A DNA stretch of 64,000 bases from assembly GCA_016906335.1 (NCBI GenBank), contig JADEYG010000003.1, positions 1,550,001-1,614,000 on the forward strand. The letters are read 5' to 3'. Of the stretch, positions 5,294 to 64,000 are shown in pieces (positions within the stretch are counted from its first letter, which is position 1; every line of letters starts with the position of its first letter). The notes beneath the pieces were generated by a model, which was given only the letters and a program-made list of their open reading frames with translations, did no database searches and had not been told where the DNA came from. The position numbers were made by a program, and so were the translations under genes. This DNA is from Novakomyces olei (taxonomy: Eukaryota).

Positions 5294-8731
<3,438 letters not shown>

Positions 8732-17705: not shown

Positions 17706-17877
17706 CGTGTGAAATTGGCTCTTGGCCCAATTGTGCCACACGTTCCCGTGCGATGATTGTGGTTCTTTACGTATATAGTGATTTTTTGTTTACTATATAC
17801 TATTGTATGGGACATTTACTATGATGATTCGTCTGCGAAATAAACAATATACTAAAATATAATATATATTAATATAT

Positions 17878-18108
17878 AAAATAAAATAAAATAAAATAAA
17901 ATAAAATAAAATAAAATAAAATAAAATAAAATAAAATAAAATAAAATAAAATAAAATAAAATAAAATAAAATAAAATAAAATAAAATAAAATAAAATAAA
18001 ATAAAATAAAATAAAATAAAATAAAATAAAATAAAATAAAATAAAATAAAATAAAATAAAATAAAATAAAATAAAATAAAATAAAATAAAATAAAATAAA
18101 ATAAAATA
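17878..18108. repeat. (AAAAT)n microsatellite
   Basis: ~230 bp perfect pentanucleotide array upstream of EFR3. Confidence 0.98.
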
Positions 18109-19196
18109 ATAAACAATAATAATCATTTCATCATTTCATGATTCAAGTATCATATAAAGTATACAATAATGTTTAGCAAATACTAAACCCTAATCCTGTG
18201 TTCTATTTCACGGCCAACGTCATTCAGAAACAGATGTGGATTCAAAGTTTCACAGAGCCTTAATTAAATTCTGTATCATTTCAGTCCCGATGTTTTATCG
18301 GTCAAACCTCGGTTTTTGTACAACAATCTTATGATATGGCAATTTATGTCATACACAAATGCACTTTCCTATATTCAAATAACAAAGTCTCAATTAAATT
18401 TGTAAATCAATGGGCAAACGATTCCCACAGGGCATTTCACCTCTGACCACGAAATAATAGACGTTTCAGAAATAATGGGAATAGACACTGATACGCTAGC
18501 CGAGACGGAATCCGAAACACTATTATTCTATGGTCTTGGATAGGATCAATGAAACAACATAAATGGGAAAAAGACGTAGTAGAAGATGATAGAGATGTAA
18601 TAAAAGGAAAATAAAACAAAATCCAGTAAAAGTAATTACAGTACACTACCGATTTGCAGTTGAACATTGTACCTTCTCTTTTTCTGTACCCTCTCGTCTT
18701 GACTGCTGGCCAATCACATGATCAAGTGAACAGTACGCGAGACACGTGACAGTGGCAATTGAACCTGCTAAAAGCCATGATTATATGATGAAATACGATA
18801 AGGCTTTTCTTTTATCTTTTTTTTTAACATTTACTACGCTTGCAATTACCTGAACACACACAAATACGACTAAATTGAGCGAGCAGAGTCGGCAAACGGT
18901 TCCAGCCAACGGCAACAAAACAAATACTTTACACACATTGCCAACGGGAATACGGGTACGTAATACACTCGGTTGGAACATATTTATGACTAGAAAGGTA
19001 TAAAAGCACGGACGGATACCCCCACGACAGTCTAACGGCGAAATGATGTGATAGAAGACAAACATTAAATTAATATAGAAGAATAAACCGGTCCACGAAT
19101 ATTATCTCTTTTTCTTTTAAAACCTCTGCCGCACCCCCGTTTAGCAATTAAAAAAAAGAGGGTGAATAAGAGGTGAGTGAATTCCGTTCTACCTGT

Positions 19197-25589: not shown

Positions 25590-25960
25590 ATATTTTTATA
25601 TTTTTATATTTTTATATTTTTATATTTTTATATTTTATTATTTTATTATTTTATTATTTGATTATTTGATTATTTGATTATTTGATTATTTGATTATTTG
25701 ATTATTTGATTATTTGATTATTTGATTATTTGATTATTTGAGTATTTGAGTATTTTATTATTTTATTGATTTATTATTTAATTATTTAATTATTTTATTA
25801 TTTAATTATTTAATTATTTAATTATTTTATTATTTTATTATTTTATTATCTTATTAATTTACTGATTTACTGATTTATTAATTTATTGATTTATTGATTT
25901 ATTAATTTATTAATTTATTATTTTATCATTTTATTATTTCATTAATTTATTATTTTATTA
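25590..25960. repeat. AT-rich compound 8-bp satellite ((TTTTTATA)n, (TTTGATTA)n and variants)
   Basis: Successive octamer arrays grading into one another. Confidence 0.9.
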
Positions 25961-29807: not shown

Positions 29808-29993
<186 letters not shown>

Positions 29994-47033: not shown

Positions 47034-47185
47034 ATGGACATTGAGGCACAGACAGAGGACGCGTGAAGGAGTGCTGCTGAGCGCTGTCGCCAGTGGATTT
47101 AGAGTTCATACATTTAGTTGGTAATTACGGCAGTGTTGACATTTTCTCATAAACAAGTAAAACCAAATAAATTAACTAACAAATG

Positions 47186-47223
47186 AATAAATAAATAGAT
47201 AAATAAATAAATAAATAAATAGA

Positions 47224-47286
<63 letters not shown>

Positions 47287-47306
47287 ATATATATATATAT
47301 ATATAA
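47186..47306. repeat. (AAAT)n + (AT)n microsatellite
   Basis: Tandem arrays downstream of PP2A-A. Confidence 0.95.
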
Positions 47307-47876
47307 ACACATGCGTCTAACACTCATTTTGACCTTTTTTACGGCAAATTTACAAGTATTACAAGCGTAAAAGTTCACGTCTGCGACGAATAATATTACT
47401 TTATTGTTTTTTCTTAGTCTGCATGCTGTTATTAGGTAAAGGCCTGGTGGTACAAGGAAAAGAATATTTTCCATATTGCATTGTTGCGAAAGCGTCCATG
47501 AAGGATCTTTCTATATTCCATCAAGCGTGTAGGTATCAATGTACGATCAGGGCGCCTCTACAAAGAGCATACTTATATCTGAGCCGTTTGGATTTAGTGA
47601 TAATTCCCATAAACGTGATTAAACATTTTCCAATTGCCCAACTAATTCATTATAATGTACAATTCTGTTTGGTTTTGGTTTAGGTATAATATTCGGTACA
47701 TACGCAAGACTAGTAAGCATACTCGCGTACATGCACGTATGCATATCACCTTGATCCATTTTTTTATTATTTCGTTTTTTTTTAATTATGTTTTTGCCCA
47801 ATAGACAATTAAATTTTCTTTATCCTCAGAGCTTTGACCCATTTTATCACGCCAACTTGTCCGCTCCATACTTTGT

Positions 47877-55262: not shown

Positions 55263-55661
55263 TTACTTAAAATTTTCTGTGAATATAACAACGTATAGTC
55301 TGATCCAGCAAGAGCTTTGAAATAATTGTGGATTATTTGTCTGTCTTGACCGTCATGCTAATTATTGCCGACCTTTGGCTCATCTTGGACTCTGGGTGAC
55401 TTTGACTGGCGTTGATTTCGACTGTACAATGTACAAATTAATTTGCATATACACATGTTTTAATAAAATTTCTTTTGCTGTTTGCTTTTAGTATTTAATG
55501 ATTTATCTAATCTAATCTAATCTAATCTAGTCTTGCTAATCAATCTAGCATATTGTGACAAAAATCCGCCTCTCCTTCATCCGTAATCGCCGTGTCCAGC
55601 TTTGTATATCTTCTCCCATATTTTTACATGCTTTTTAATTGTACATATATCAATCTCGCAT

Positions 55662-58600
55662 TCAAAGCAAATTGTAATACCTTGTAGATTTAATAAGGCA
55701 GAATTCCACAAAGTCCTCGAGACCAAGGAAGACGTATGGTTGACTGAGAGCGTCCATATACTCTTCACGGATATAAAAGCGGTTACTACATTCCGTTCGC
55801 ACCTTCAATTTCATGAGCTGTACAAAATGTCTGCTGCCGGAGTCAGCTAAAAGAGTATTTACTGCAAGAATCGTGTCTAAGACAACATTCGTCACCAGTT
55901 CCGTTACTGGCGTCTGCGATATGAAATAGTCTCGGAGCGCGGGCTTAAGTTTTAAGAGTAATTGAAAAACGTTGCAGTTCGAAATTACAATCACTTGGTG
56001 CAAACAAACGTTTGCATCAAGATTTGAATCCTTCGTTGCTTTTCGCCAAAGTTCATCTTTACCCGGCTCGTTAAAAGCTAAAATATGGTTGAACAGCCAC
56101 GTGCCAAACTTTTCGAAAAACAATTCTTTTAATTCAGGAAATTCTTCTTCCCACAGACCGCAGGCTTTTTGTGCTTCAATAAAGGGTGTGATACTTAAGG
56201 TTTTCCTATCATCAATATCAAAAGATTTCAGTTGGTGTGGCTTATACTCGTCAATTTCTTCATTGGACCAGGAGCCACTGTAATGTAATAGGCCGTCATG
56301 AATAAATTTAAGCGAATCTGTTGATGCCTCTTTAAACCGAGATGAAACATTCCAGTAATCTTCATCAAACCAAGATGGATCATTCCAGTAATGAAAATAA
56401 ACGTATTCTATTTTAATCACCACCAAGTAGTTTTCTTTATGAAGAATCTTGTTTGCCTTAGTAACAATTCGCCTAACATCAAAATGCACCAGACGATTAA
56501 TACGAATCATCTCGCTCACGCTCCATCTTGATGTTTCTTGGCAACCATTTAAATACTCTAGAAACAGTTCTCTAGAAAAACGAACAAAAAAACTCAATAC
56601 AGGATTCCTAAAAACCAAATGGCCTGCAGACTCCTCACAGTAGTATGAATCGGGTTTTAAGAATCCCTTCGTTTTCTCATAGTCCTTAATAAAACTGGCT
56701 GCTGATTCGCTGTGCTTAAAACAAGGATCACTTTGACAGTAATATCCTTGAGCTTTTTTAACCAGTTCGTTGACTTTAATGTCCACGAAGTCATCGGTAA
56801 ATCTGGTGCTGACAAACGGGTATTTGTCTACTATCCTGGTTTCCAGTAGAGACGATGCCTTTGGACAAAACAATTTGCCTCTAGCCCTTTCACGGGTTGT
56901 CGTATTTAACAACGAAGACAGAACTTGCTGGGGTTGCGACACCATTCTTAGATCACAAATTTCCGTAGACCACGGATGTCCTTCTGAACTTAACTGTAAA
57001 GGCGCATAAAAAGGGTCTGTCAGCTCTGAGCGCGCGCTCTTACGACCTCTGCCGGAGGATGTATGAGGCGCAAAAATAAAAGAAGTACTAGAAGTACTAG
57101 AAGAACTAGAAGAACTAGAAGTACTTGAAGTCTTAGAAGTGCTTGAAGTCTTAGACGTACTTGAAGTCATAGAAGTACTTGAAGTCCTAGAAGAACTTGA
57201 AGTCATAGAAGTACTCGAAGTACTAGAAGTGCTTGAAGTCACAGAAGAACTTGAAGTCTTAGAAGAACTTGAAGTCCTAGAAGTGCTTGAGGACCTAGAA
57301 GTACTTGAAGTCATAGAGGTGCTTGAAGTCATAGAAGTCCTTGAAGTCTTAGAAGTACTTGAAGTCATAGAAGTACTTGAAGTCCTAGAAGTGCTTGAAG
57401 TCATAGAAGTACTCGAAGTACTAGAAGTCCTTGAAGTCACAGAAGAACTTGAAGTCTTAGAAGAACTTGAAGTCCTAGAAGTGCTTGAAGACCTAGAAGT
57501 ACTTGAAGTCATAGAGGTGCTTGAAGTCATAGAAGTCCTTGAAGTCTTAGAAGTACTTGAAGTCATAGAAGTACTTGAAGTCTTAGAAGTACTCGAAGTA
57601 CTAGAAGTGCTTGAAGTCACAGAAGAACTTGAAGTCTTAGAAGTACTTGAAGTCATAGAAGTGCTTGAAGTCATAGAAGTACTAGAAGTCTTAGAAGTAC
57701 TTGAAGTCATAGAAGTACTTGAAGTACTAGAAGTGCTTGAAGACCTAGAAGTACTTGAAGTCATAGAGGTGCTTGAAGTCATAGAAGTCCTTGAAGTCTT
57801 AGAAGTACTTGAAGTCATAGAAGTACTTGAAGTCATAGAAGTACTTGAAGTACTAGAAGTCCTTGAAGTCACAGAAGAAGTTGAAGTCTTAGAAGTACTT
57901 GAAGTCTTCGAAGAACTTGAAGTCCTAGAAGTGCTTGAAGACCTAGAAGTACTTGAAGTCATAGAGGTGCTTGAAGTCATAGAAGTCCTTGAAGTCATAG
58001 AAGTGCTTGAGGTGATACTAGAGTTACTTGAAGTCTTAGAGGTACTAAAAGTAGAAGCAACAAAAACACTAAAACCAAGAGTTCCAGAAGAGGCCTTCGG
58101 TTTCGGGTCTTTTTCAGGAAAAATAGCAGAATAGAAAATTGATGAATCCAGACTAGCAGAGCCTTCAGATCCGTAGTTTTTAGATAAAATTTGAACAGTA
58201 GTTTTTTCAGAGTATTCGTTTGTCAGATTGACTGAACCATCAATATCTTTTCTTGATGCTAACGAAGTACTTGCTGCTGAAGATGAAGTAGTTCTATTCT
58301 CTTTCCTCGACCCATAAATAGATTCGGAGCTGAGCATGGATGAAGGAGTTGCCAGACTGATGTTTTTTGACAAGTCCTTTTCGTCCGTATAAGTCATAGT
58401 CAATAATCTGTTTGAAGACACCTTGAATTGAAACGTAGACTTCGATTTAGAGGGAGGGTTCACAAGCGTAGACTTTGCCATAGGCTTAGACTTCTTCTGT
58501 GAGGGCTTGTTGTTTTTGGTTCGAGAGGAACTCGACAGTGTAGCGACGGGAGTCTTGCTCAATGCAGAGCTCGAGACCTTAGAAAACCTTTGAGACGAAT

Positions 58601-61600
58601 AGACGACGCTCGATTCATTGAGCGGACTTACATAAACAACGGTAAGCGATTGAGACTGGTCGGATAAAATTGTTGCTCGGATTGACTTATTCCATGCAGA
58701 ATGCATCGGACTCAACCCGCTCGTTGATAAATTAAACGGATTCTTAGACGAGTCCGCAAGTGTTGTTGCTAAACTTGACCTATTCAATGCAGATTGCAGC
58801 GGCCTCAATGCGCTCTGTGAAGAACTAGATGACTCGGTTGACTTATTCAATGCAGAATGCAGCGGACTCAATCCTGTCTGTGAAGAATTAAACGACTCGG
58901 TTGACTTATTCAATGCAGAATGCAGCGGACTCATCGCACTCGTAGATGAATTAAACGACTCGGTTGACCTATTCAATGCAGAATGCAAAAGACTCAACGC
59001 ACTCGTAGATGAATTAAACGACTTCTTAGTCTGGTCGGCGAGTGTTGTAGCACGGCTTGACTTATTCAATGCAGAATGCAGCGGACTCAATCCTGTCTGT
59101 GAAGAACTAAACGACTCGGTTGACCTATTCAATGCAGAATGCAGCGGACTCAATCCTGTTTGTGAAGAACTAAACGACTCGGTTGACCTATTCAATGCAG
59201 AATGCAAAGGACTCAAAGCGCTCTGTGAAGAATTAAACGACTCGGTTGACCTATTCAATGCAGAATGCAAAGGACTCAAAGCGCTCTGTGAAGAATTAAA
59301 CGACTCGGTTGACCTATTCAATGCAGAATGGAGCGGACTCAATCCTGTCTGTGAAGAACTAAACGAGTCGGTTGACCTATTCAATGCAGAATGCAAAGGA
59401 CTCAAAGCGCTCTGTGAGGAAATAAACGACTTCTTAGTCTGGTCGGCGAGTGTTGTAGCACGGCTTGACTTATTCAATGCAGAATGCAGCGGACTCAATC
59501 CTGTCTGTGAAGAACTAAACGAGTCGGTTGACCTATTCAATGCAGAATGCAAAGGACTCAAAGCGCTCTGTGAGGAAATAAACGACTCGGTTGACTTATT
59601 CAATGCAGAATGCAGCGGACTCAACGCACTCGTAGATGAATTAAACGACTTCTTAGACTGGTTGGCGAGTGTTGTAGCACGGCTTGACCTATTCAATGCA
59701 GAATGCAGCGGACTCAAAGCGCTCTGTGAAGAATTAAACGACTCGGTTGACCTATTCAATGCAGAATGCAGCGGACTCGATGCGCTCGTCGATGAATTAA
59801 ACGACTCGGTTGACCTATTCAAAGCAGAATGCAAAGGACTCAACGCACTCGTAGATGAATTAAATGACTTCTTAGACTGGTCGGCGAGTGTTGTAGCACG
59901 GCTTGACTTATTCAATGCGGATTGCAAAGAACTCAAAGCGCTATGTAAAGAATTAAACGACTCGGTTGACTTATTCAATGCAGAATGCAGCGGACTCAAA
60001 GCGCTCTGTGAAGAATTAAACGACTCGGTTGACCTATTCAATGCAGAATGCAGCGGACTCGATGCGCTCGTCGATGAATTAAACGACTCGGTTGACCTAT
60101 TCAATGCAGAATGCAAAGGACTCAACGCACTCGTAGATGAATTAAACGACTTCTTAGTCTGGTCGGCGAGTGTTGTAGCACGGCTTGACTTATTCAATGC
60201 AGAATGCAGCGGACTCAATCCTGTCTGTGAAGAACTAAACGACTCGGTTGACCTATTCAATGCAGAATGCAAAGGACTCAAAGCGCTCTGTGAAGAATTA
60301 AACGACTCGGTTGACCTATTCAATGCAGAATGCAAAGGACTCAAAGCGCTCTGTGAAGAATTAAACCACTCGGTTGACCTATTCAATGCAGAATGGAGCG
60401 GACTCGATGCGCTCGACGAAGAATTAAACGACTCGGTTGACCTATTCAATTCAGATTGCAGCGGACTCAAACCTGTCTGTGAAGAATTAAAGGACTCGCG
60501 TGATTTATTCAATGCAGAATGGAGCGGACTCGATGCGCTCGACGAAGAATTAAACGACTCGGTTGACCTATTCAATTCAGATTGCAGCGGACTCAAACCT
60601 GTCTGTGAAGAATTAAAGGACTCGCGTGATTTATTCAATGCAGAATGCAGCGGGCTCAACGCACTCGTGGATGAATTAAACGACTTCTTAGACTGGTCGG
60701 CGAGTGTTGTAGCACGGCTTGACTTATTCAATGCGGATTGCAAAGGACTCAAACCTGTCTGTGAAGAATTAAAGGACTCGCGTGATTTATTCAATGCAGA
60801 ATGCAGCGGACTCAACGCACTCGTGGATGAATTAAACGACTTCTTAGACTGGCCGGCGAGTGATTCTGCAGAGCTTGACTTATTCAATGCAGATTGCAAA
60901 GGACTCAAAGCGCTCTGTGAAGAACTAAACGACTCGGTTGACCTATTCAATGCGGATTGCAAAGGACTCAATCCTGTCTGTGAAGAATTAAACGACTCAG
61001 TTGACTTATTCAATGCAGATTGCAGCGGCCTCAATCCTGTCTGTGAAGAATTAAAGGACTCGCGTGATTTATTCAATGCAGAATGCAGCGGACTCAACGC
61101 ACTCGTGGATGAATTAAACGACTTCTTAGACTGGCCGGCGAGTGATTCTGCAGAGCTTGACTTATTCAATGCAGATTGCAAAGGACTCAAAGCGCTCTGT
61201 GAAGAACTAAACAACTCGGTTGACCTATTCAATGCGGATTGCAAAGGACTCAATCCTGTCTGTGAAGAATTAAACGACTCAGTTGACTTATTCAATGCAG
61301 ATTGCAGCGGCCTCAATCCTGTCTGTGAAGAATTAAAGGACTCGCGTGATTTATTCAATGCAGAATGCAGCGGACTCAACGCACTCGTGGATAAATTAAA
61401 CGACTTCTTAGACTGGCCGGCGAGTGATTCTGCAGAGCTTGACTTATTCAATGCGGATTGCAAAGAACTCAAAGCACTCTGTGAAGAATTAAACGACTCG
61501 GTTGACTTATTCAATGCAGATTGCAGCGGGCTCAACGCACTCGTGGATGAATTAAACGACTTCTTAGACTGGTTGGCGAGTGATTCTGCAGAGCTTGACT

Positions 61601-64000
61601 TATTCAATTCAGATTGCAAAGGACTCAAACCTGTCTGTGAAGAATTAAACGACTCGGTTGACTTATTCAATGCAGAATGCAGCGGCCTCAATTCTGTCTG
61701 TGAAGAATTAAACGACTCAGTTGACCTATTCAATGCGGATTGCAAAGGACTCAAACCTGTCTGTGAAGAATTAAACGACTCAGTTGACTTATTCAATGCA
61801 GATTGCAGCGGCCTCAATCCTGTCTGTGAAGAATTAAAGGACTCGTGTGATTTATTCAATGCAGAATGCAGCGGACTCAACGCACTCGTGGATAAATTAA
61901 ACGACTTCTTAGACTGGCCGGCGAGTGATTCTGCAGAGCTTGACTTATTCAATGCAGATTGCAAAGGACTCAAAGCGCTCTGTGAAGAACTAAACGACTC
62001 GGTTGACCTATTCAATGCGGATTGCAAAGGACTCAAAGCGCTCTGTGAAGAATTAAACGACTCGGTTGACTTATTCAATGCAGAATGCAGCGGACTCAAC
62101 GCACTCGTAGATGAATTAAACGACTTCTTAGTCTGGTCGGCGAGTGTTGTAGCACGGCTTGACTTATTCAATGCAGAATGCAGCGGACTCAATCCTGTCT
62201 GTGAAGAATTAAACGACTCGGTTGACCTATTCAATGCAGAATGCAAAGGACTCAAAGCGCTCTGTGAAGAATTAAACGACTCGGTTGACCTATTCAATGC
62301 AGAATGCAGCGGACTCGATGCGCTCGTCGATGAATTAAACGACTCGGTTGACCTATTCAATGCAGAATGCAAAGGACTCAACGCACTCGTAGATGAATTA
62401 AACGACTTCTTAGACTGGTTGGCGAGTGTTGTAGCACCGCTTGACTTATTCAATGCGGATTGCAAAGGACTCAAAGCGCTCTGTAAAGAATTAAACGACT
62501 CGGTTGACTTATTCAATGCAGATTGCAGCGGGCTCAACGCACTCGTGGATGAATTAAACGATTTCTTAGACTGGCCGGCGAGTGATTCTGCAGAGCTTGA
62601 CTTATTCAATTCAGATTGCAAAGAACTCAAACCTGTCTGTGAAGAATTAAACGACTCAGTTGACTTATTCAATGCAGAATGCAGCGGCCTCAATCCTGTC
62701 TGTGAAGAATTAAACGACTCGGTTGATTTATTCAATGCAGAATGCAAAGGACTCAAAGCGCTCTGTGAAGAATTAAACGACTCGGTTGACATATTCAATG
62801 CAGAATGGAGCGGACTCGATGCGCTCGACGATGAATTAAACGACTCGGTTGACCTATTCAATGCAGATTGCAGCGGACTCAAACCTGTCTGTGAAGAATT
62901 AAAGGACTCGCGTGATTTATTCAATGCAGAATGCAGCGGACTCAACGCACTCGTGGATGAATTAAACGACTTCTTAGACTGGCCGGCGAGTGATTCTGCA
63001 GAGCTTGACTTATTCAATGCAGATTGCAAAGGACTCAAAGCGCTCTGTGAAGAACTAAACGACTCGGTTGACTTATTCAATGCGGATTGCAGCGGACTCA
63101 AACCTGTCTGTGAAGAATTAAAGGACTCGCGTGATTTATTCAATGCAGAATGCAGCGGACTCAACGCACTCGTGGATAAATTAAACGACTTCTTAGACTG
63201 GCCGGCGAGTGATTCTGCAGAGCTTGACTTATTCAATGCAGATTGCAAAGGACTCAAAGCGCTCTGTGAAGAACTAAACGACTCGGTTGACCTATTCAAT
63301 GCGGATTGCAAAGGACTCAATCCTGTCTGTGAAGAATTAAACGACTCAGTTGACTTATTCAATGCAGATTGCAACGGCCTCAATCCTGTCTGTGAAGAAT
63401 TAAAGGACTCGCGTGATTTATTCAATGCAGAATGCAGCGGACTCAACGCACTCGTGGATAAATTAAACGACTTCTTAGACTGGCCGGCGAGTGATTCTGC
63501 AGAGCTTGACTTATTCAATGCGGATTGCAAAGAACTCAAAGCACTCTGTGAAGAATTAAACGACTCGGTTGACTTATTCAATGCAGATTGCAGCGGGCTC
63601 AACGCACTCGTGGATGAATTAAACGACTTCTTAGACTGGTTGGCGAGTGTTGTAGCACGGCTTGACTTATTCAATGCGGATTGCAAAGGACTCAAAGCGC
63701 TCTGTAAAGAATTAAACGACTCGGTTGACTTATTCAATGCAGATTGCAGCGGGCTCAACGCACTCGTGGATGAATTAAACGATTTCTTAGACTGGCCGGC
63801 GAGTGATTCTGCAGAGCTTGACTTATTCAATTCAGATTGCAAAGAACTCAAACCTGTCTGTGAAGAATTAAACGACTCGGTTGACTTATTCAATGCAGAA
63901 TGCAGCGGCCTCAATTCTGTCTGTGAAGAATTAAACGACTCAGTTGACCTATTCAATGCGGATTCCAAAGGACTCAATCCTGTCTGTGAAGAATTAAACG
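55662..64000 (-). CDS. Giant (>2770 aa, 5'-truncated by window edge) intronless Ser-rich repeat protein with unknown C-terminal globular domain
   Basis: One uninterrupted ORF: 21/31-aa repeats (~58640-64000), unique S/K-rich linker, (S-x-T)n tract (~57085-58050), then ~470 aa of normal composition. Several repeat variants are synonymous on this strand but not on the opposite one. Confidence 0.8.
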   Translation of the reverse strand, partial: FNSSQTGLSPLESALNRSTESFNSSQTELRPLHSALNKSTESFNSSQTGLSSLQSELNKSSSAESLAGQSKKSFNSSTSALSPLQSALNKSTESFNSLQSALSPLQSALNKSSRATTLANQSKKSFNSSTSALSPLQSALNKSTESFNSSQSALSSLQSALNKSSSAESLAGQSKKSFNLSTSALSPLHSALNKSRESFNSSQTGLRPLQSALNKSTESFNSSQTGLSPLQSALNRSTESFSSSQSALSPLQSALNKSSSAESLAGQSKKSFNLSTSALSPLHSALNKSRESFNSSQTGLSPLQSALNKSTESFSSSQSALSPLQSALNKSSSAESLAGQSKKSFNSSTSALSPLHSALNKSRESFNSSQTGLSPLQSALNRSTESFNSSSSASSPLHSALNMSTESFNSSQSALSPLHSALNKSTESFNSSQTGLRPLHSALNKSTESFNSSQTGLSSLQSELNKSSSAESLAGQSKKSFNSSTSALSPLQSALNKSTESFNSLQSALSPLQSALNKSSGATTLANQSKKSFNSSTSALSPLHSALNRSTESFNSSTSASSPLHSALNRSTESFNSSQSALSPLHSALNRSTESFNSSQTGLSPLHSALNKSSRATTLADQTKKSFNSSTSALSPLHSALNKSTESFNSSQSALSPLQSALNRSTESFSSSQSALSPLQSALNKSSSAESLAGQSKKSFNLSTSALSPLHSALNKSHESFNSSQTGLRPLQSALNKSTESFNSSQTGLSPLQSALNRSTESFNSSQTELRPLHSALNKSTESFNSSQTGLSPLQSELNKSSSAESLANQSKKSFNSSTSALSPLQSALNKSTESFNSSQSALSSLQSALNKSSSAESLAGQSKKSFNLSTSALSPLHSALNKSRESFNSSQTGLRPLQSALNKSTESFNSSQTGLSPLQSALNRSTELFSSSQSALSPLQSALNKSSSAESLAGQSKKSFNSSTSALSPLHSALNKSRESFNSSQTGLRPLQSALNKSTESFNSSQTGLSPLQSALNRSTESFSSSQSALSPLQSALNKSSSAESLAGQSKKSFNSSTSALSPLHSALNKSRESFNSSQTGLSPLQSALNKSSRATTLADQSKKSFNSSTSALSPLHSALNKSRESFNSSQTGLSPLQSELNRSTESFNSSSSASSPLHSALNKSRESFNSSQTGLSPLQSELNRSTESFNSSSSASSPLHSALNRSTEWFNSSQSALSPLHSALNRSTESFNSSQSALSPLHSALNRSTESFSSSQTGLSPLHSALNKSSRATTLADQTKKSFNSSTSALSPLHSALNRSTESFNSSTSASSPLHSALNRSTESFNSSQSALSPLHSALNKSTESFNSLHSALSSLQSALNKSSRATTLADQSKKSFNSSTSALSPLHSALNRSTESFNSSTSASSPLHSALNRSTESFNSSQSALSPLHSALNRSSRATTLANQSKKSFNSSTSALSPLHSALNKSTESFISSQSALSPLHSALNRSTDSFSSSQTGLSPLHSALNKSSRATTLADQTKKSFISSQSALSPLHSALNRSTDSFSSSQTGLSPLHSALNRSTESFNSSQSALSPLHSALNRSTESFNSSQSALSPLHSALNRSTESFSSSQTGLSPLHSALNRSTESFSSSQTGLSPLHSALNKSSRATTLADQTKKSFNSSTSALSLLHSALNRSTESFNSSTSAMSPLHSALNKSTESFNSSQTGLSPLHSALNKSTESSSSSQSALRPLQSALNRSSLATTLADSSKNPFNLSTSGLSPMHSAWNKSIRATILSDQSQSLTVVYVSPLNESSVVYSSQRFSKVSSSALSKTPVATLSSSSRTKNNKPSQKKSKPMAKSTLVNPPSKSKSTFQFKVSSNRLLTMTYTDEKDLSKNISLATPSSMLSSESIYGSRKENRTTSSSAASTSLASRKDIDGSVNLTNEYSEKTTVQILSKNYGSEGSASLDSSIFYSAIFPEKDPKPKASSGTLGFSVFVASTFSTSKTSSNSSITSSTSMTSRTSMTSSTSMTSSTSRSSSTSRTSSSSKTSSTSKTSTSSVTSRTSSTSSTSMTSSTSMTSSTSKTSRTSMTSSTSMTSSTSRSSSTSSTSSTSMTSSTSKTSSTSMTSSTSMTSSTSKTSSSSVTSSTSSTSSTSKTSSTSMTSSTSKTSRTSMTSSTSMTSSTSRSSSTSRTSSSSKTSSSSVTSRTSSTSSTSMTSSTSRTSSTSMTSSTSKTSRTSMTSSTSMTSSTSRSSSTSRTSSSSKTSSSSVTSSTSSTSSTSMTSSSSRTSSTSMTSSTSKTSSTSKTSSTSSSSSSSSTSSTSFIFAPHTSSGRGRKSARSELTDPFYAPLQLSSEGHPWSTEICDLRMVSQPQQVLSSLLNTTTRERARGKLFCPKASSLLETRIVDKYPFVSTRFTDDFVDIKVNELVKKAQGYYCQSDPCFKHSESAASFIKDYEKTKGFLKPDSYYCEESAGHLVFRNPVLSFFVRFSRELFLEYLNGCQETSRWSVSEMIRINRLVHFDVRRIVTKANKILHKENYLVVIKIEYVYFHYWNDPSWFDEDYWNVSSRFKEASTDSLKFIHDGLLHYSGSWSNEEIDEYKPHQLKSFDIDDRKTLSITPFIEAQKACGLWEEEFPELKELFFEKFGTWLFNHILAFNEPGKDELWRKATKDSNLDANVCLHQVIVISNCNVFQLLLKLKPALRDYFISQTPVTELVTNVVLDTILAVNTLLADSGSRHFVQLMKLKVRTECSNRFYIREEYMDALSQPYVFLGLEDFVEFCLIKSTRYYNLL
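57085..58050 (-). repeat. 9-bp coding minisatellite encoding (S-[S/M/K/R/V]-T)n
   Basis: + strand gaagtactt/gaagtcata/gaagtctta units with higher-order blocks. Confidence 0.95.
58640..64000 (-). repeat. Coding megasatellite of 63-bp and 93-bp units
   Basis: Units SPL[HQ]SALN[RK]STESFNSSQ[TG/SA]L (21 aa) and SPL[HQ]SALNKS[SAES/RATT]LA[GND]QSKKSFNSSTSAL (31 aa), interleaved for >5.3 kb. Confidence 0.97.

What the first reader, a model, noticed from the sequence alone, without database searches (positions are those of the whole stretch)
55662..64000. Giant intronless orphan protein: megasatellite stalk + (SxT)n tract + unrecognised C-terminal domain
Seen: one ORF >8.3 kb, still open at the window edge, with three modules: >5.3 kb of 21/31-aa Ser-rich repeats carrying two N-x-S sequons in most units (NRS/NKS and NSS), ~320 aa of S-x-T triplets, and a ~470-aa Cys/aromatic-containing globular region. 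Known: fungal adhesins/flocculins (FLO, ALS, EPA) put the ligand domain N-terminal to the repeat stalk and end in a GPI signal. Seen here: the globular domain is C-terminal and ends ...LIKSTRYYNLL with no hydrophobic GPI tail. Inference: a lineage-specific surface/secreted glycoprotein or effector with inverted architecture (closer to non-GPI PA14/GLEYA-type S. pombe flocculins, or a type II anchored stalk), possibly a new family.
Basis: partly seen in the sequence, partly recalled or inferred. Interest (0 to 1): 0.8.

Follow-up and report, generated by a model that had tools for sequence, protein, structure and literature searches.

The report
Giant fungal stalk with variable tip
A fungus carries a single-exon gene for a 12,105-residue, probably secreted protein: a huge sugar-coated repeat stalk ending in a domain of no known family that differs sharply between the gene's two copies, as expected of a surface protein that recognises partners or hosts, though its function is untested.

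Summary
The frame runs 28 kb beyond the window to an ATG: 36,318 bp, 12,105 aa, ~1.28 MDa. Order: signal-peptide-like start, ~1,350 aa hydrophilic region, 418 units of 21/31 aa with a heptad pattern and ~800 N-glycan sequons, linker, S/T tract, 472-aa tip; no membrane helix, no GPI tail. A second copy on contig C4 is 95% identical at the N-terminus but 73% at the tip, where dN/dS is 1.7 (p 0.014; 2.25 without gap-adjacent segments): diversifying selection. Both tips occur in two DNA runs. The open antisense frame is not the gene. The tip matches nothing in Pfam, PDB or metagenome searches; no fold could be predicted. Best reading (~0.5): a non-GPI surface glycoprotein holding a recognition domain up to microns from the cell. 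It works like fission-yeast Map4/Mam3 but is not a member (no DIPSY/GLEYA). Rivals: a precursor cut at 94 KK sites; a contact-delivered toxin. Array length and expression are unverified.

The parts
55662..64000 (-). 3' quarter of a single open frame of 12,105 aa. Beyond the window it continues through the rest of the array (to G000:C3:1637920), a ~1,330-aa mostly disordered N-terminal region (95% identical in the C4 copy, no homologue) and a signal-peptide-like start at the ATG G000:C3:1641979, followed by six sequons in aa 54-85 and a KR site at aa 59-60
55662..57077 (-). C-terminal tip domain (~472 aa, 11 Cys), no known family; 73% identical to the C4 copy, dN/dS > 1, differences clustered in patches; no GPI signal
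57078..58052 (-). S/T triplet tract (~322-324 aa, 83% S+T), likely O-glycosylated spacer (inference)
58053..58667 (-). 205-aa Ser/Lys-rich non-repetitive linker, 82% identical in the C4 copy
58668..64000 (-). window part of the compound 63/93-bp (21/31-aa) array; whole array 418 units, 9,728 aa, 29 kb; heptad hydrophobic pattern, two sequons per unit, KK in 94 of 95 long units
58654..64000 (+). antisense open frame of the array (coiled-coil-looking); judged non-coding: no Met in 9,949 codons, closed in the flanking unique sequence, 33 stops in the C4 copy
55427..55661 (-). ~235 bp of 3' flank shared with the C4 copy (end of the duplicated block; likely 3' UTR, inference)

Best explanation
A real, recently duplicated fungal gene for a giant secreted glycoprotein that stays on or near the cell wall without a GPI anchor and acts as a stalk-and-tip recognition protein. 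Steps: (1) one open frame, coding constraint, two copies: shown. (2) Entry into the ER by a cleaved N-terminal signal: inferred from hydrophobicity. (3) The 21/31-aa array forms kinked amphipathic helices (Phe1, Leu8, Leu11, Leu15 on one face, a Pro per unit) with the Asn sequons beside that face, so that ~800 N-glycans coat a rod or bottle-brush of roughly 1.5 um (helical) to 3.4 um (extended): pattern shown, structure inferred. (4) The S/T tract is a stiff O-glycosylated spacer: inferred from known adhesins. (5) The ~470-aa tip is the binding end; it contacts something that varies (mating partner, competitor, host or substrate), and the two copies have been driven apart in specificity: selection shown for one pair, ligand unknown. 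(6) Wall attachment is non-covalent, through the N-terminal region or the stalk, as for Map4: inferred by analogy.
For: Open frame of 12,105 aa without N or stop. Tip keeps its frame through 176 substitutions (no stop in 4 of 20,000 neutral simulations) and its indels are 3, 3, 3 and 36 bp plus one cluster netting +3. Hydrophobic N-terminus scores 2.82; 1 of 43 control ORF starts scores higher; six sequons in aa 21-100 against 1.6 expected, p 0.001. No membrane helix (best 19-residue window 1.62) and no GPI-type tail. Array: period 3.5 is the strongest hydrophobicity peak; Leu11, Leu15, Asn16 invariant in 418 of 418 units; sequons intact in 348 and 414 of 418; in the C4 copy the same positions change mostly hydrophobic-to-hydrophobic (L to I/M/F/V) and the sequons stay, although no unit is identical between copies (0 of 58 distinct C4 units). 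Tip omega 1.71 (LRT p 0.014), 2.25 without gap-adjacent segments (p 0.003), 2.86 for aa 1-300; N-terminal aa 1-900 omega 0.54; differences clustered (0 of 5,000 permutations). Both tip types lie in DNA run X1 at single-copy depth and in run X2 of another study. Precedent: signal + S/T repeats + C-terminal binding domain exposed at the wall surface, no GPI, non-covalent attachment in Map4 (PMC6023273, passages); positive selection on the binding domain after duplication in the Hil adhesin family (10.1101/2022.02.09.479577, passages); both copies lie ~100 kb from a contig end.
Against: Nothing identifies the tip as a binding domain: no family, no fold (pLDDT 32 and 29). Selection rests on two sequences; counting by NG86 gives 1.42 with a 95% interval of 0.98-2.05; the C-terminal third of the tip has omega 1.04, and linker (1.09) and whole N-terminal region (0.79) do not differ from 1, so relaxed constraint plus patchy gene conversion explains part of the pattern. 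Sequons are not enriched over the N-terminal region as a whole (20 vs 21.3). Within-array variants do not discriminate sense from antisense reading. The hydrophobic moment of the consensus unit is only moderately above shuffles (p 0.026) and the d positions hold Ser. 94 KK sites could cut the stalk into pieces. The C4 copy has three frame breaks in its array. A 2.6-kb exact tandem duplication in the array may be an assembly over-count. Secretion, glycosylation and binding were not measured.
Confidence: 0.5

Rival explanations
1. Processed polyprotein. A kexin cuts at the KK in each 31-aa unit and releases ~95 amphipathic glycopeptides of 31-199 aa that coat the surface (like Ustilago Rep1 repellents), plus a separate S/T-tip fragment.
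For: KK in 94 of 95 long units in C3 and KK/RK in 116 of 116 in C4; amphipathic units; KK counts as a Kex2 site in KEP surveys, and Rep1 is a repeat protein cut into water-repellent peptides (PMC7329392, PMC9769878, passages); KR at aa 59-60.
Against: No KR or RR anywhere in the array; KK is the weakest Kex2 site (recalled); 42 of 93 inter-KK pieces exceed the 100-aa limit of the KEP definition; other positions of the unit are as invariant as KK, so its conservation needs no special cause; it does not explain the fused, diversifying tip.
Confidence: 0.18
2. Contact-delivered toxin or effector. The stalk reaches a neighbouring cell (competitor, prey or host) and the tip is an enzyme under arms-race selection, possibly a highly diverged kinase-like fold.
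For: Constant N-terminus and stalk with a variable C-terminal domain is the layout of bacterial stalked polymorphic toxins (PMC3482391, passages); omega > 1 in patches around long invariant blocks. Tip aa 396-441 align to the catalytic-loop-to-activation-segment stretch of a profile of 19 kinases from this genome; score 26.9 exceeds 127 of 127 shuffles of that subregion; Atlas rows with APH and RIO1 labels at 0.78-0.79.
Against: HH-suite probability only 9-14%; 1 of 20 whole-domain shuffles scored higher; hmmsearch -0.3 bits; C4 tip alone gives no alignment; subregion chosen after the fact; Atlas scores are at chance level. The tips are homologues, not swapped cassettes; no standalone tips (2 of 2 candidates were the two genes); neighbours are an Msp1-type AAA ATPase, an ankyrin protein and retrotransposons, no candidate immunity gene. 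PMC3482391 says eukaryotic toxins mostly are not direct counterparts of these systems.
Confidence: 0.13
3. Inverse roles: the tip binds the cell's own wall (as the C-terminal domain of secreted Blastomyces Bad1 does) and the glycosylated stalk is the working part, a hydrated shield, capsule or matrix fibre.
For: No GPI or membrane anchor; Bad1 is secreted and rebinds through a C-terminal domain (PMC6023273, passage); ~800 sequons would add >1.3 MDa of core glycan.
Against: An anchor to self polysaccharide should be conserved, yet the tip is the fastest-changing unique part; no chitin- or glucan-binding Pfam match.
Confidence: 0.12
4. Not a functional giant protein: assembly inflation, a decaying gene, or the + strand coiled-coil frame is the real gene.
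For: Exact tandem duplications of 2,619 bp (C3) and 3,075 bp (C4); three frame breaks in C4; antisense frame open for ~9,900 codons with a clean heptad; omega near 1 outside aa 1-900.
Against: 113 distinct unit sequences in irregular order; removing the one duplication leaves ~11,250 aa; all 418 units are 63 or 93 bp; antisense frame has no Met, is closed in unique flanks and has 33 stops in C4; stop-free divergence of the tip; both tips in two DNA runs.
Confidence: 0.07

Closest known systems
Fission-yeast non-GPI adhesins (Map4, Mam3, Pfl family with C-terminal DIPSY or GLEYA; Linder and Gustafsson 2008, seen only as cited in PMC6023273 and PMC13147542)
   Same: Signal sequence, S/T-rich repeats, globular domain at the C-terminus, no GPI signal, lineage-restricted sequence.
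   Different: Tip is ~470 aa with no DIPSY/GLEYA match; repeats are heptad-patterned and N-glycan-dense rather than beta-sheet repeats; 12,105 aa against 948 (Map4) and 1,082 (Mam3); no sequence kinship shown.
GPI adhesins with minisatellite or megasatellite stalks (FLO, ALS, EPA, Awp; Hil family)
   Same: Intragenic tandem array with in-frame motifs, two intermingled motifs sharing a 5' part (compound minisatellite of PMC2566889), paralogues with fast-diverging repeats, selection on the globular domain, position near contig ends.
   Different: Opposite polarity, no GPI; array 29 kb against a longest of 9.6 kb in PMC2566889; typical size 600-2,500 aa (PMC6023273).
KEX2-processed repeat proteins (Rep1 repellents, KEPs)
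   Same: Signal sequence plus repeats punctuated by dibasic sites (KK).
   Different: No KR/RR in the array, pieces up to 199 aa, giant size, large C-terminal domain.
Blastomyces Bad1
   Same: Secreted, repeat-rich, no GPI, C-terminal globular domain.
   Different: Bad1 is 1,146 aa with Cys/Trp-rich 24-aa repeats and an EGF-like wall-binding domain (PMC6023273); none of these here.
Bacterial stalked polymorphic toxins (CdiA, RHS)
   Same: Export signal, long repeat stalk, variable C-terminal domain.
   Different: No toxin domain recognised, no immunity gene, no orphan tip cassettes, tips diverge by point change; no homology.

Membership tests
Fission-yeast non-GPI adhesins (Map4/Mam3/Pfl) | N-terminal secretion signal | tested here: inconclusive
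   Hydrophobic core scores above 42 of 43 control ORF starts; no SignalP available.
Fission-yeast non-GPI adhesins (Map4/Mam3/Pfl) | Ser/Thr-rich repeats | tested here: met
   Array 38% S+T, tract 83% S+T.
Fission-yeast non-GPI adhesins (Map4/Mam3/Pfl) | No GPI addition signal | tested here: met
   Last 40 aa: 11-residue hydropathy at most 1.07, charged residues near the end; crude test, no GPI predictor.
Fission-yeast non-GPI adhesins (Map4/Mam3/Pfl) | C-terminal DIPSY or GLEYA/PA14 domain | tested here: not met
   No such Pfam match in either tip or their parts; none in the genome's first look, which does not show absence.
Fission-yeast non-GPI adhesins (Map4/Mam3/Pfl) | Wall association and cell-cell adhesion | not testable with these tools
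   Needs localisation and deletion.
GPI adhesins (FLO/ALS/EPA) | Folded N-terminal ligand domain | tested here: not met
   aa 1-900 mostly predicted disordered, no Cys, no Pfam match over cut-off.
GPI adhesins (FLO/ALS/EPA) | C-terminal GPI signal | tested here: not met
Megasatellite (PMC2566889) | Motif of 126-429 bp | tested here: not met
   Motifs are 63 and 93 bp, intermingled: compound minisatellite.
KEX2-processed repeat proteins (PMC7329392) | Three or more repeats between KR/KK/RK/RR sites | tested here: met
   94 KK sites in the array.
KEX2-processed repeat proteins (PMC7329392) | No repeated piece longer than 100 aa | tested here: not met
   42 of 93 inter-KK pieces are 115-199 aa.
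KEX2-processed repeat proteins (PMC7329392) | Peptides actually released | not testable with these tools
   Needs peptidomics.
Polymorphic toxins | Recognisable C-terminal toxin domain | tested here: not met
   No match in Pfam, NCBIfam, PHROGs, PDB sequences; an unknown enzyme is not excluded.
Polymorphic toxins | Adjacent immunity gene and standalone tip cassettes | tested here: not met
   Neighbours are housekeeping genes or retrotransposons; only two tips in the genome.
Protein-kinase-like fold | Significant profile match across both lobes | tested here: inconclusive
   44-column local match, probability 9-14%; global alignment at background.
Signalling mucins (Msb2/Hkr1; features recalled) | Membrane helix between stalk and cytoplasmic tail | tested here: not met
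   Best 19-residue window between array and tip 0.87.

The most novel reading that the evidence does not exclude
A single-chain, micron-long secreted glycoprotein filament, among the largest fungal proteins, that carries a diversifying catalytic or recognition warhead of a new fold to neighbouring cells: a eukaryotic counterpart of contact-dependent inhibition or self/non-self recognition at a distance, with the two paralogues as two specificities.
Probability: 0.13. Interest if true: 0.92.

Novelty: new variant of a known kind. Interest (0 to 1): 0.7.

Why it matters
Described fungal adhesins are mostly 600-2,500 aa and come from a few yeasts (PMC6023273). A 12,105-aa single-exon secreted protein with ~800 sequons would stretch what a fungal secretory pathway is known to handle and could reach as far as a cell is wide. 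Its stalk chemistry (heptad amphipathic, N-glycan-dense) differs from the S/T or beta-sheet stalks described, and its tip is an unassigned ~470-aa domain with a ready experiment: two natural variants whose differences cluster in patches under positive selection, which points at the binding surface. It also shows how short-read assemblies and ORF callers (misled by the open antisense frame) can hide such genes.

Tried and rejected
Homologue searches, all blank: tip against 5.8 billion proteins at near and longer lengths (shorter lengths not searched; proteins over 2,385 aa not covered), phmmer against 1.84 billion representatives, N-terminal region, two-tip alignment against metagenome, viral and prokaryote contigs, stalk against metagenomes (one locus, L057, a chance short word without repeats). 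These collections are poor in fungal genomes, so blanks are weak. Pfam/NCBIfam/PHROGs/PDB sequences: only sub-threshold rows for the tips; Pfam hits of the array in either frame are repeat-inflated coiled-coil noise. AlphaFold2 on one tip and on the pair: pLDDT 31.7 and 29.0; Foldseek on the second model gave no match at E <= 0.001 and is not meaningful. Atlas: no usable hit for the C3 tip, chance-level rows for the C4 tip. Kinase lead: not established. Antisense coiled-coil gene: rejected; the within-array synonymous test could not decide because third codon positions coincide, the flanks and the C4 copy did. Complex prediction for a stalk trimer was not available. Literature: 10 searches; those aimed at a comparable giant fungal protein showed none in their listings; the organism was not identified, so a genome paper that mentions this gene cannot be excluded; supplements were not read, and adhesin length tables from long-read C. 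glabrata assemblies (e.g. of PMC9548116) may bear on the size claim.
Full report
1. Observation. The minus-strand frame 55662-63998 is open for 2,778 codons and runs off the window. It holds 1,777 aa of repeats (53 units of 21 aa, 19 of 31 aa, one degenerate piece; 57 of 73 pieces with two sequons), a 205-aa linker, 322 aa of S/T triplets and a 474-aa Cys/aromatic region without a hydrophobic tail. The unique tip is open in this frame only (20-45 stops in the five others; P(open) about 2e-14). The lineage was not determined.

2. The whole gene. The window is G000:C3:1550001-1614000 in a 14.3-Mb, 15-contig assembly. The frame continues to an ATG at C3:1641979: 36,318 bp, 12,105 aa, 1,278 kDa, no N. 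Order: hydrophobic N-terminus; ~1,330 aa hydrophilic region (no Cys in aa 1-1193); array of 418 units (323 of 21 aa, 95 of 31 aa; 9,728 aa; 84 distinct protein units, 113 distinct DNA units); linker; S/T tract; tip. The best 11-residue hydropathy in the first 30 aa is 2.82, exceeded by 1 of 43 control ORF starts; six sequons follow in aa 54-85 (1.6 expected in aa 21-100, p 0.001), though the N-terminal region as a whole is not enriched (20 vs 21.3). No 19-residue window exceeds 1.62, none between array and tip exceeds 0.87, and the tail is not GPI-like.

3. Which strand. The + strand frame over the array is also open (9,949 codons, two stops at its far end) and looks like a coiled coil. Third codon positions coincide in the two frames, so variation within the array cannot decide. 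It is rejected because it has no Met, is closed in every unique module and has 33 stops in the second copy.

4. Second copy. C4:1381200-1409522 (+), 28,323 bp, has the same layout. The duplicated block covers ~620 bp upstream (97% identical) and ~235 bp downstream; the C4 copy sits among gypsy- and copia-type retrotransposon frames (my reading of the translations), the C3 copy between housekeeping genes. Both are ~100 kb from a contig end. No third copy or standalone tip was found (of 217 stalk matches the 150 listed all fall in these two genes). The C4 array has three frame breaks near 1396157, 1401823 and 1405275, each a single-base loss against 9-12 intact copies of the same context; uncorrected read errors or real inactivation cannot be told apart. 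Run X1 (may be the source sample) holds both tip types at depths of 1,128-1,232 against 1,142 for the neighbouring single-copy gene; run X2, from another study, holds both at depth 5-8 (three of its variant sites were matched to the C4 sequence by eye). So the two tips are not assembly artefacts.

5. Selection. Identity between copies is 95% (N-terminal 1,193 aa), 82% (linker), 73% (tip). The tip is under coding constraint: 176 substitutions without a stop (4 of 20,000 neutral simulations) and frame-keeping indels. Its omega by a pairwise codon model is 1.71 (p 0.014 against 1), 2.25 after dropping four gap-adjacent segments (398 of 458 codons; p 0.003), 2.86 for aa 1-300 and 1.04 for aa 301-471; N-terminal aa 1-900 give 0.54, aa 901-1193 1.29, linker 1.09. 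NG86 counting gives 1.42 (0.98-2.05). Changes cluster in patches between invariant blocks (0 of 5,000 permutations). This is diversifying selection on part of the tip, from one pair only; gene conversion and relaxed constraint may contribute.

6. Stalk. Hydrophobicity peaks at period 3.5; Phe1, Leu8, Leu11 and Leu15 form one face, with a Pro in most units; Leu11, Leu15 and Asn16 are invariant in 418 of 418 units, sequons intact in 348 and 414; 797 sequons in aa 1194-11104. In C4 no unit is identical but these positions stay hydrophobic in nearly all units and the sequons stay. The 31-aa unit adds ten residues with a KK (94 of 95). Length would be ~1.5 um as helix, ~3.4 um extended. The structure is inferred from pattern only.

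7. Tip. No family, homologue or fold. A kinase-like hint (motif names recalled) was tested with a profile of 19 kinases from this genome (30 loci fetched of 148 matches, 19 near-complete ones used): a 44-column local match, probability 9-14%, above 127 of 127 subregion shuffles but below 1 of 20 whole-domain shuffles, with no global support. It is a lead only.

8. Mechanism. Most likely (0.5) a secreted, non-GPI, heavily glycosylated stalk that presents a recognition domain far from the wall, the two copies differing in specificity. Shown: gene, duplication, repeat pattern, lack of anchor motifs, selection. Inferred: secretion, glycosylation, shape, wall retention, binding. Rivals: KK-processed peptide precursor (0.18), contact-delivered toxin or enzyme (0.13), tip as wall anchor with the stalk as shield (0.12), artefact or non-functional (0.07).

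9. Comparison. It works most like fission-yeast Map4/Mam3-type adhesins: signal, S/T repeats, C-terminal binding domain exposed at the surface, no GPI, non-covalent attachment (PMC6023273, passages; PMC13147542, section 28). It is not a member: no DIPSY or GLEYA, different repeat type, 11-13 times longer. The array is a compound minisatellite, three times the longest array (9.6 kb) in PMC2566889 (abstract and passages). Selection on the binding domain after duplication is described for Hil adhesins (10.1101/2022.02.09.479577, passages). KEP criteria are half met (PMC7329392, PMC9769878, passages). Stalked polymorphic toxins share the layout but not the immunity gene or cassettes (PMC3482391, passages). 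PMC9548116, PMC6023314 and PMC8746771 were seen in passages and gave no size record. Linder and Gustafsson 2008 was not seen. No supplements were read.

10. Novelty and verdict. New variant of a known kind: the polarity is known, while the size, the heptad N-glycan stalk and the unassigned, diversifying tip were not found in the searches made. That it is the largest fungal secreted protein is not established. It rests on one assembly, with expression and array length open. Interest 0.7.

Noticed in passing
G000:C4:1372300-1380000 and 1410200-1424000 (L022, L008, L024): The second copy is embedded in a nest of gypsy- and copia-type LTR retrotransposon frames, several with frame breaks; possibly a heterochromatic cluster that could silence or vary expression of this copy.
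   Followed up: partly
window 58654-64000 (+) and 57067-58134 (+): Antisense frames of the array and of the S/T tract are open and read as a convincing coiled coil and an (E-V-L)n repeat with many Pfam noise hits; they can mislead ORF callers.
   Followed up: yes
tip aa ~33-46 (window ~56940-56980): The first hypervariable patch holds a cluster of small indels (2, 8 and 3 bp) that together keep the frame; possibly a compensated frameshift that rewrote the patch.
   Followed up: no
G000:C7:19792, C3:1713927, C5:2353 (809-aa frames) and C5:28984, C3:1708749 (351-aa frames): Kinase-like matches with equal open-frame lengths near the ends of different contigs suggest duplicated subtelomeric blocks carrying kinase genes.
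   Followed up: no
window 8226-8480, 17853-18109, 25594-25960, 29810-29993, 47165-47307: Unusually long AT-rich microsatellites between or inside genes (TTTA x64, TAAAA x51, 8-mer x46, AAT x61, AAAT x36), and scattered telomere-like TTAGGG words.
   Followed up: no
protein aa 901-1193 (C3:1638401-1639279): The more ordered end of the N-terminal region diverges faster between copies (dN 0.056, omega 1.29, not significant) than aa 1-900 (dN 0.017); it may be a second interaction or wall-binding module.
   Followed up: partly
G000:C3:1643710-1647648 (+): A 1,313-aa ankyrin-repeat frame lies divergently ~1.7 kb upstream of the giant gene; not shared with the C4 copy.
   Followed up: partly
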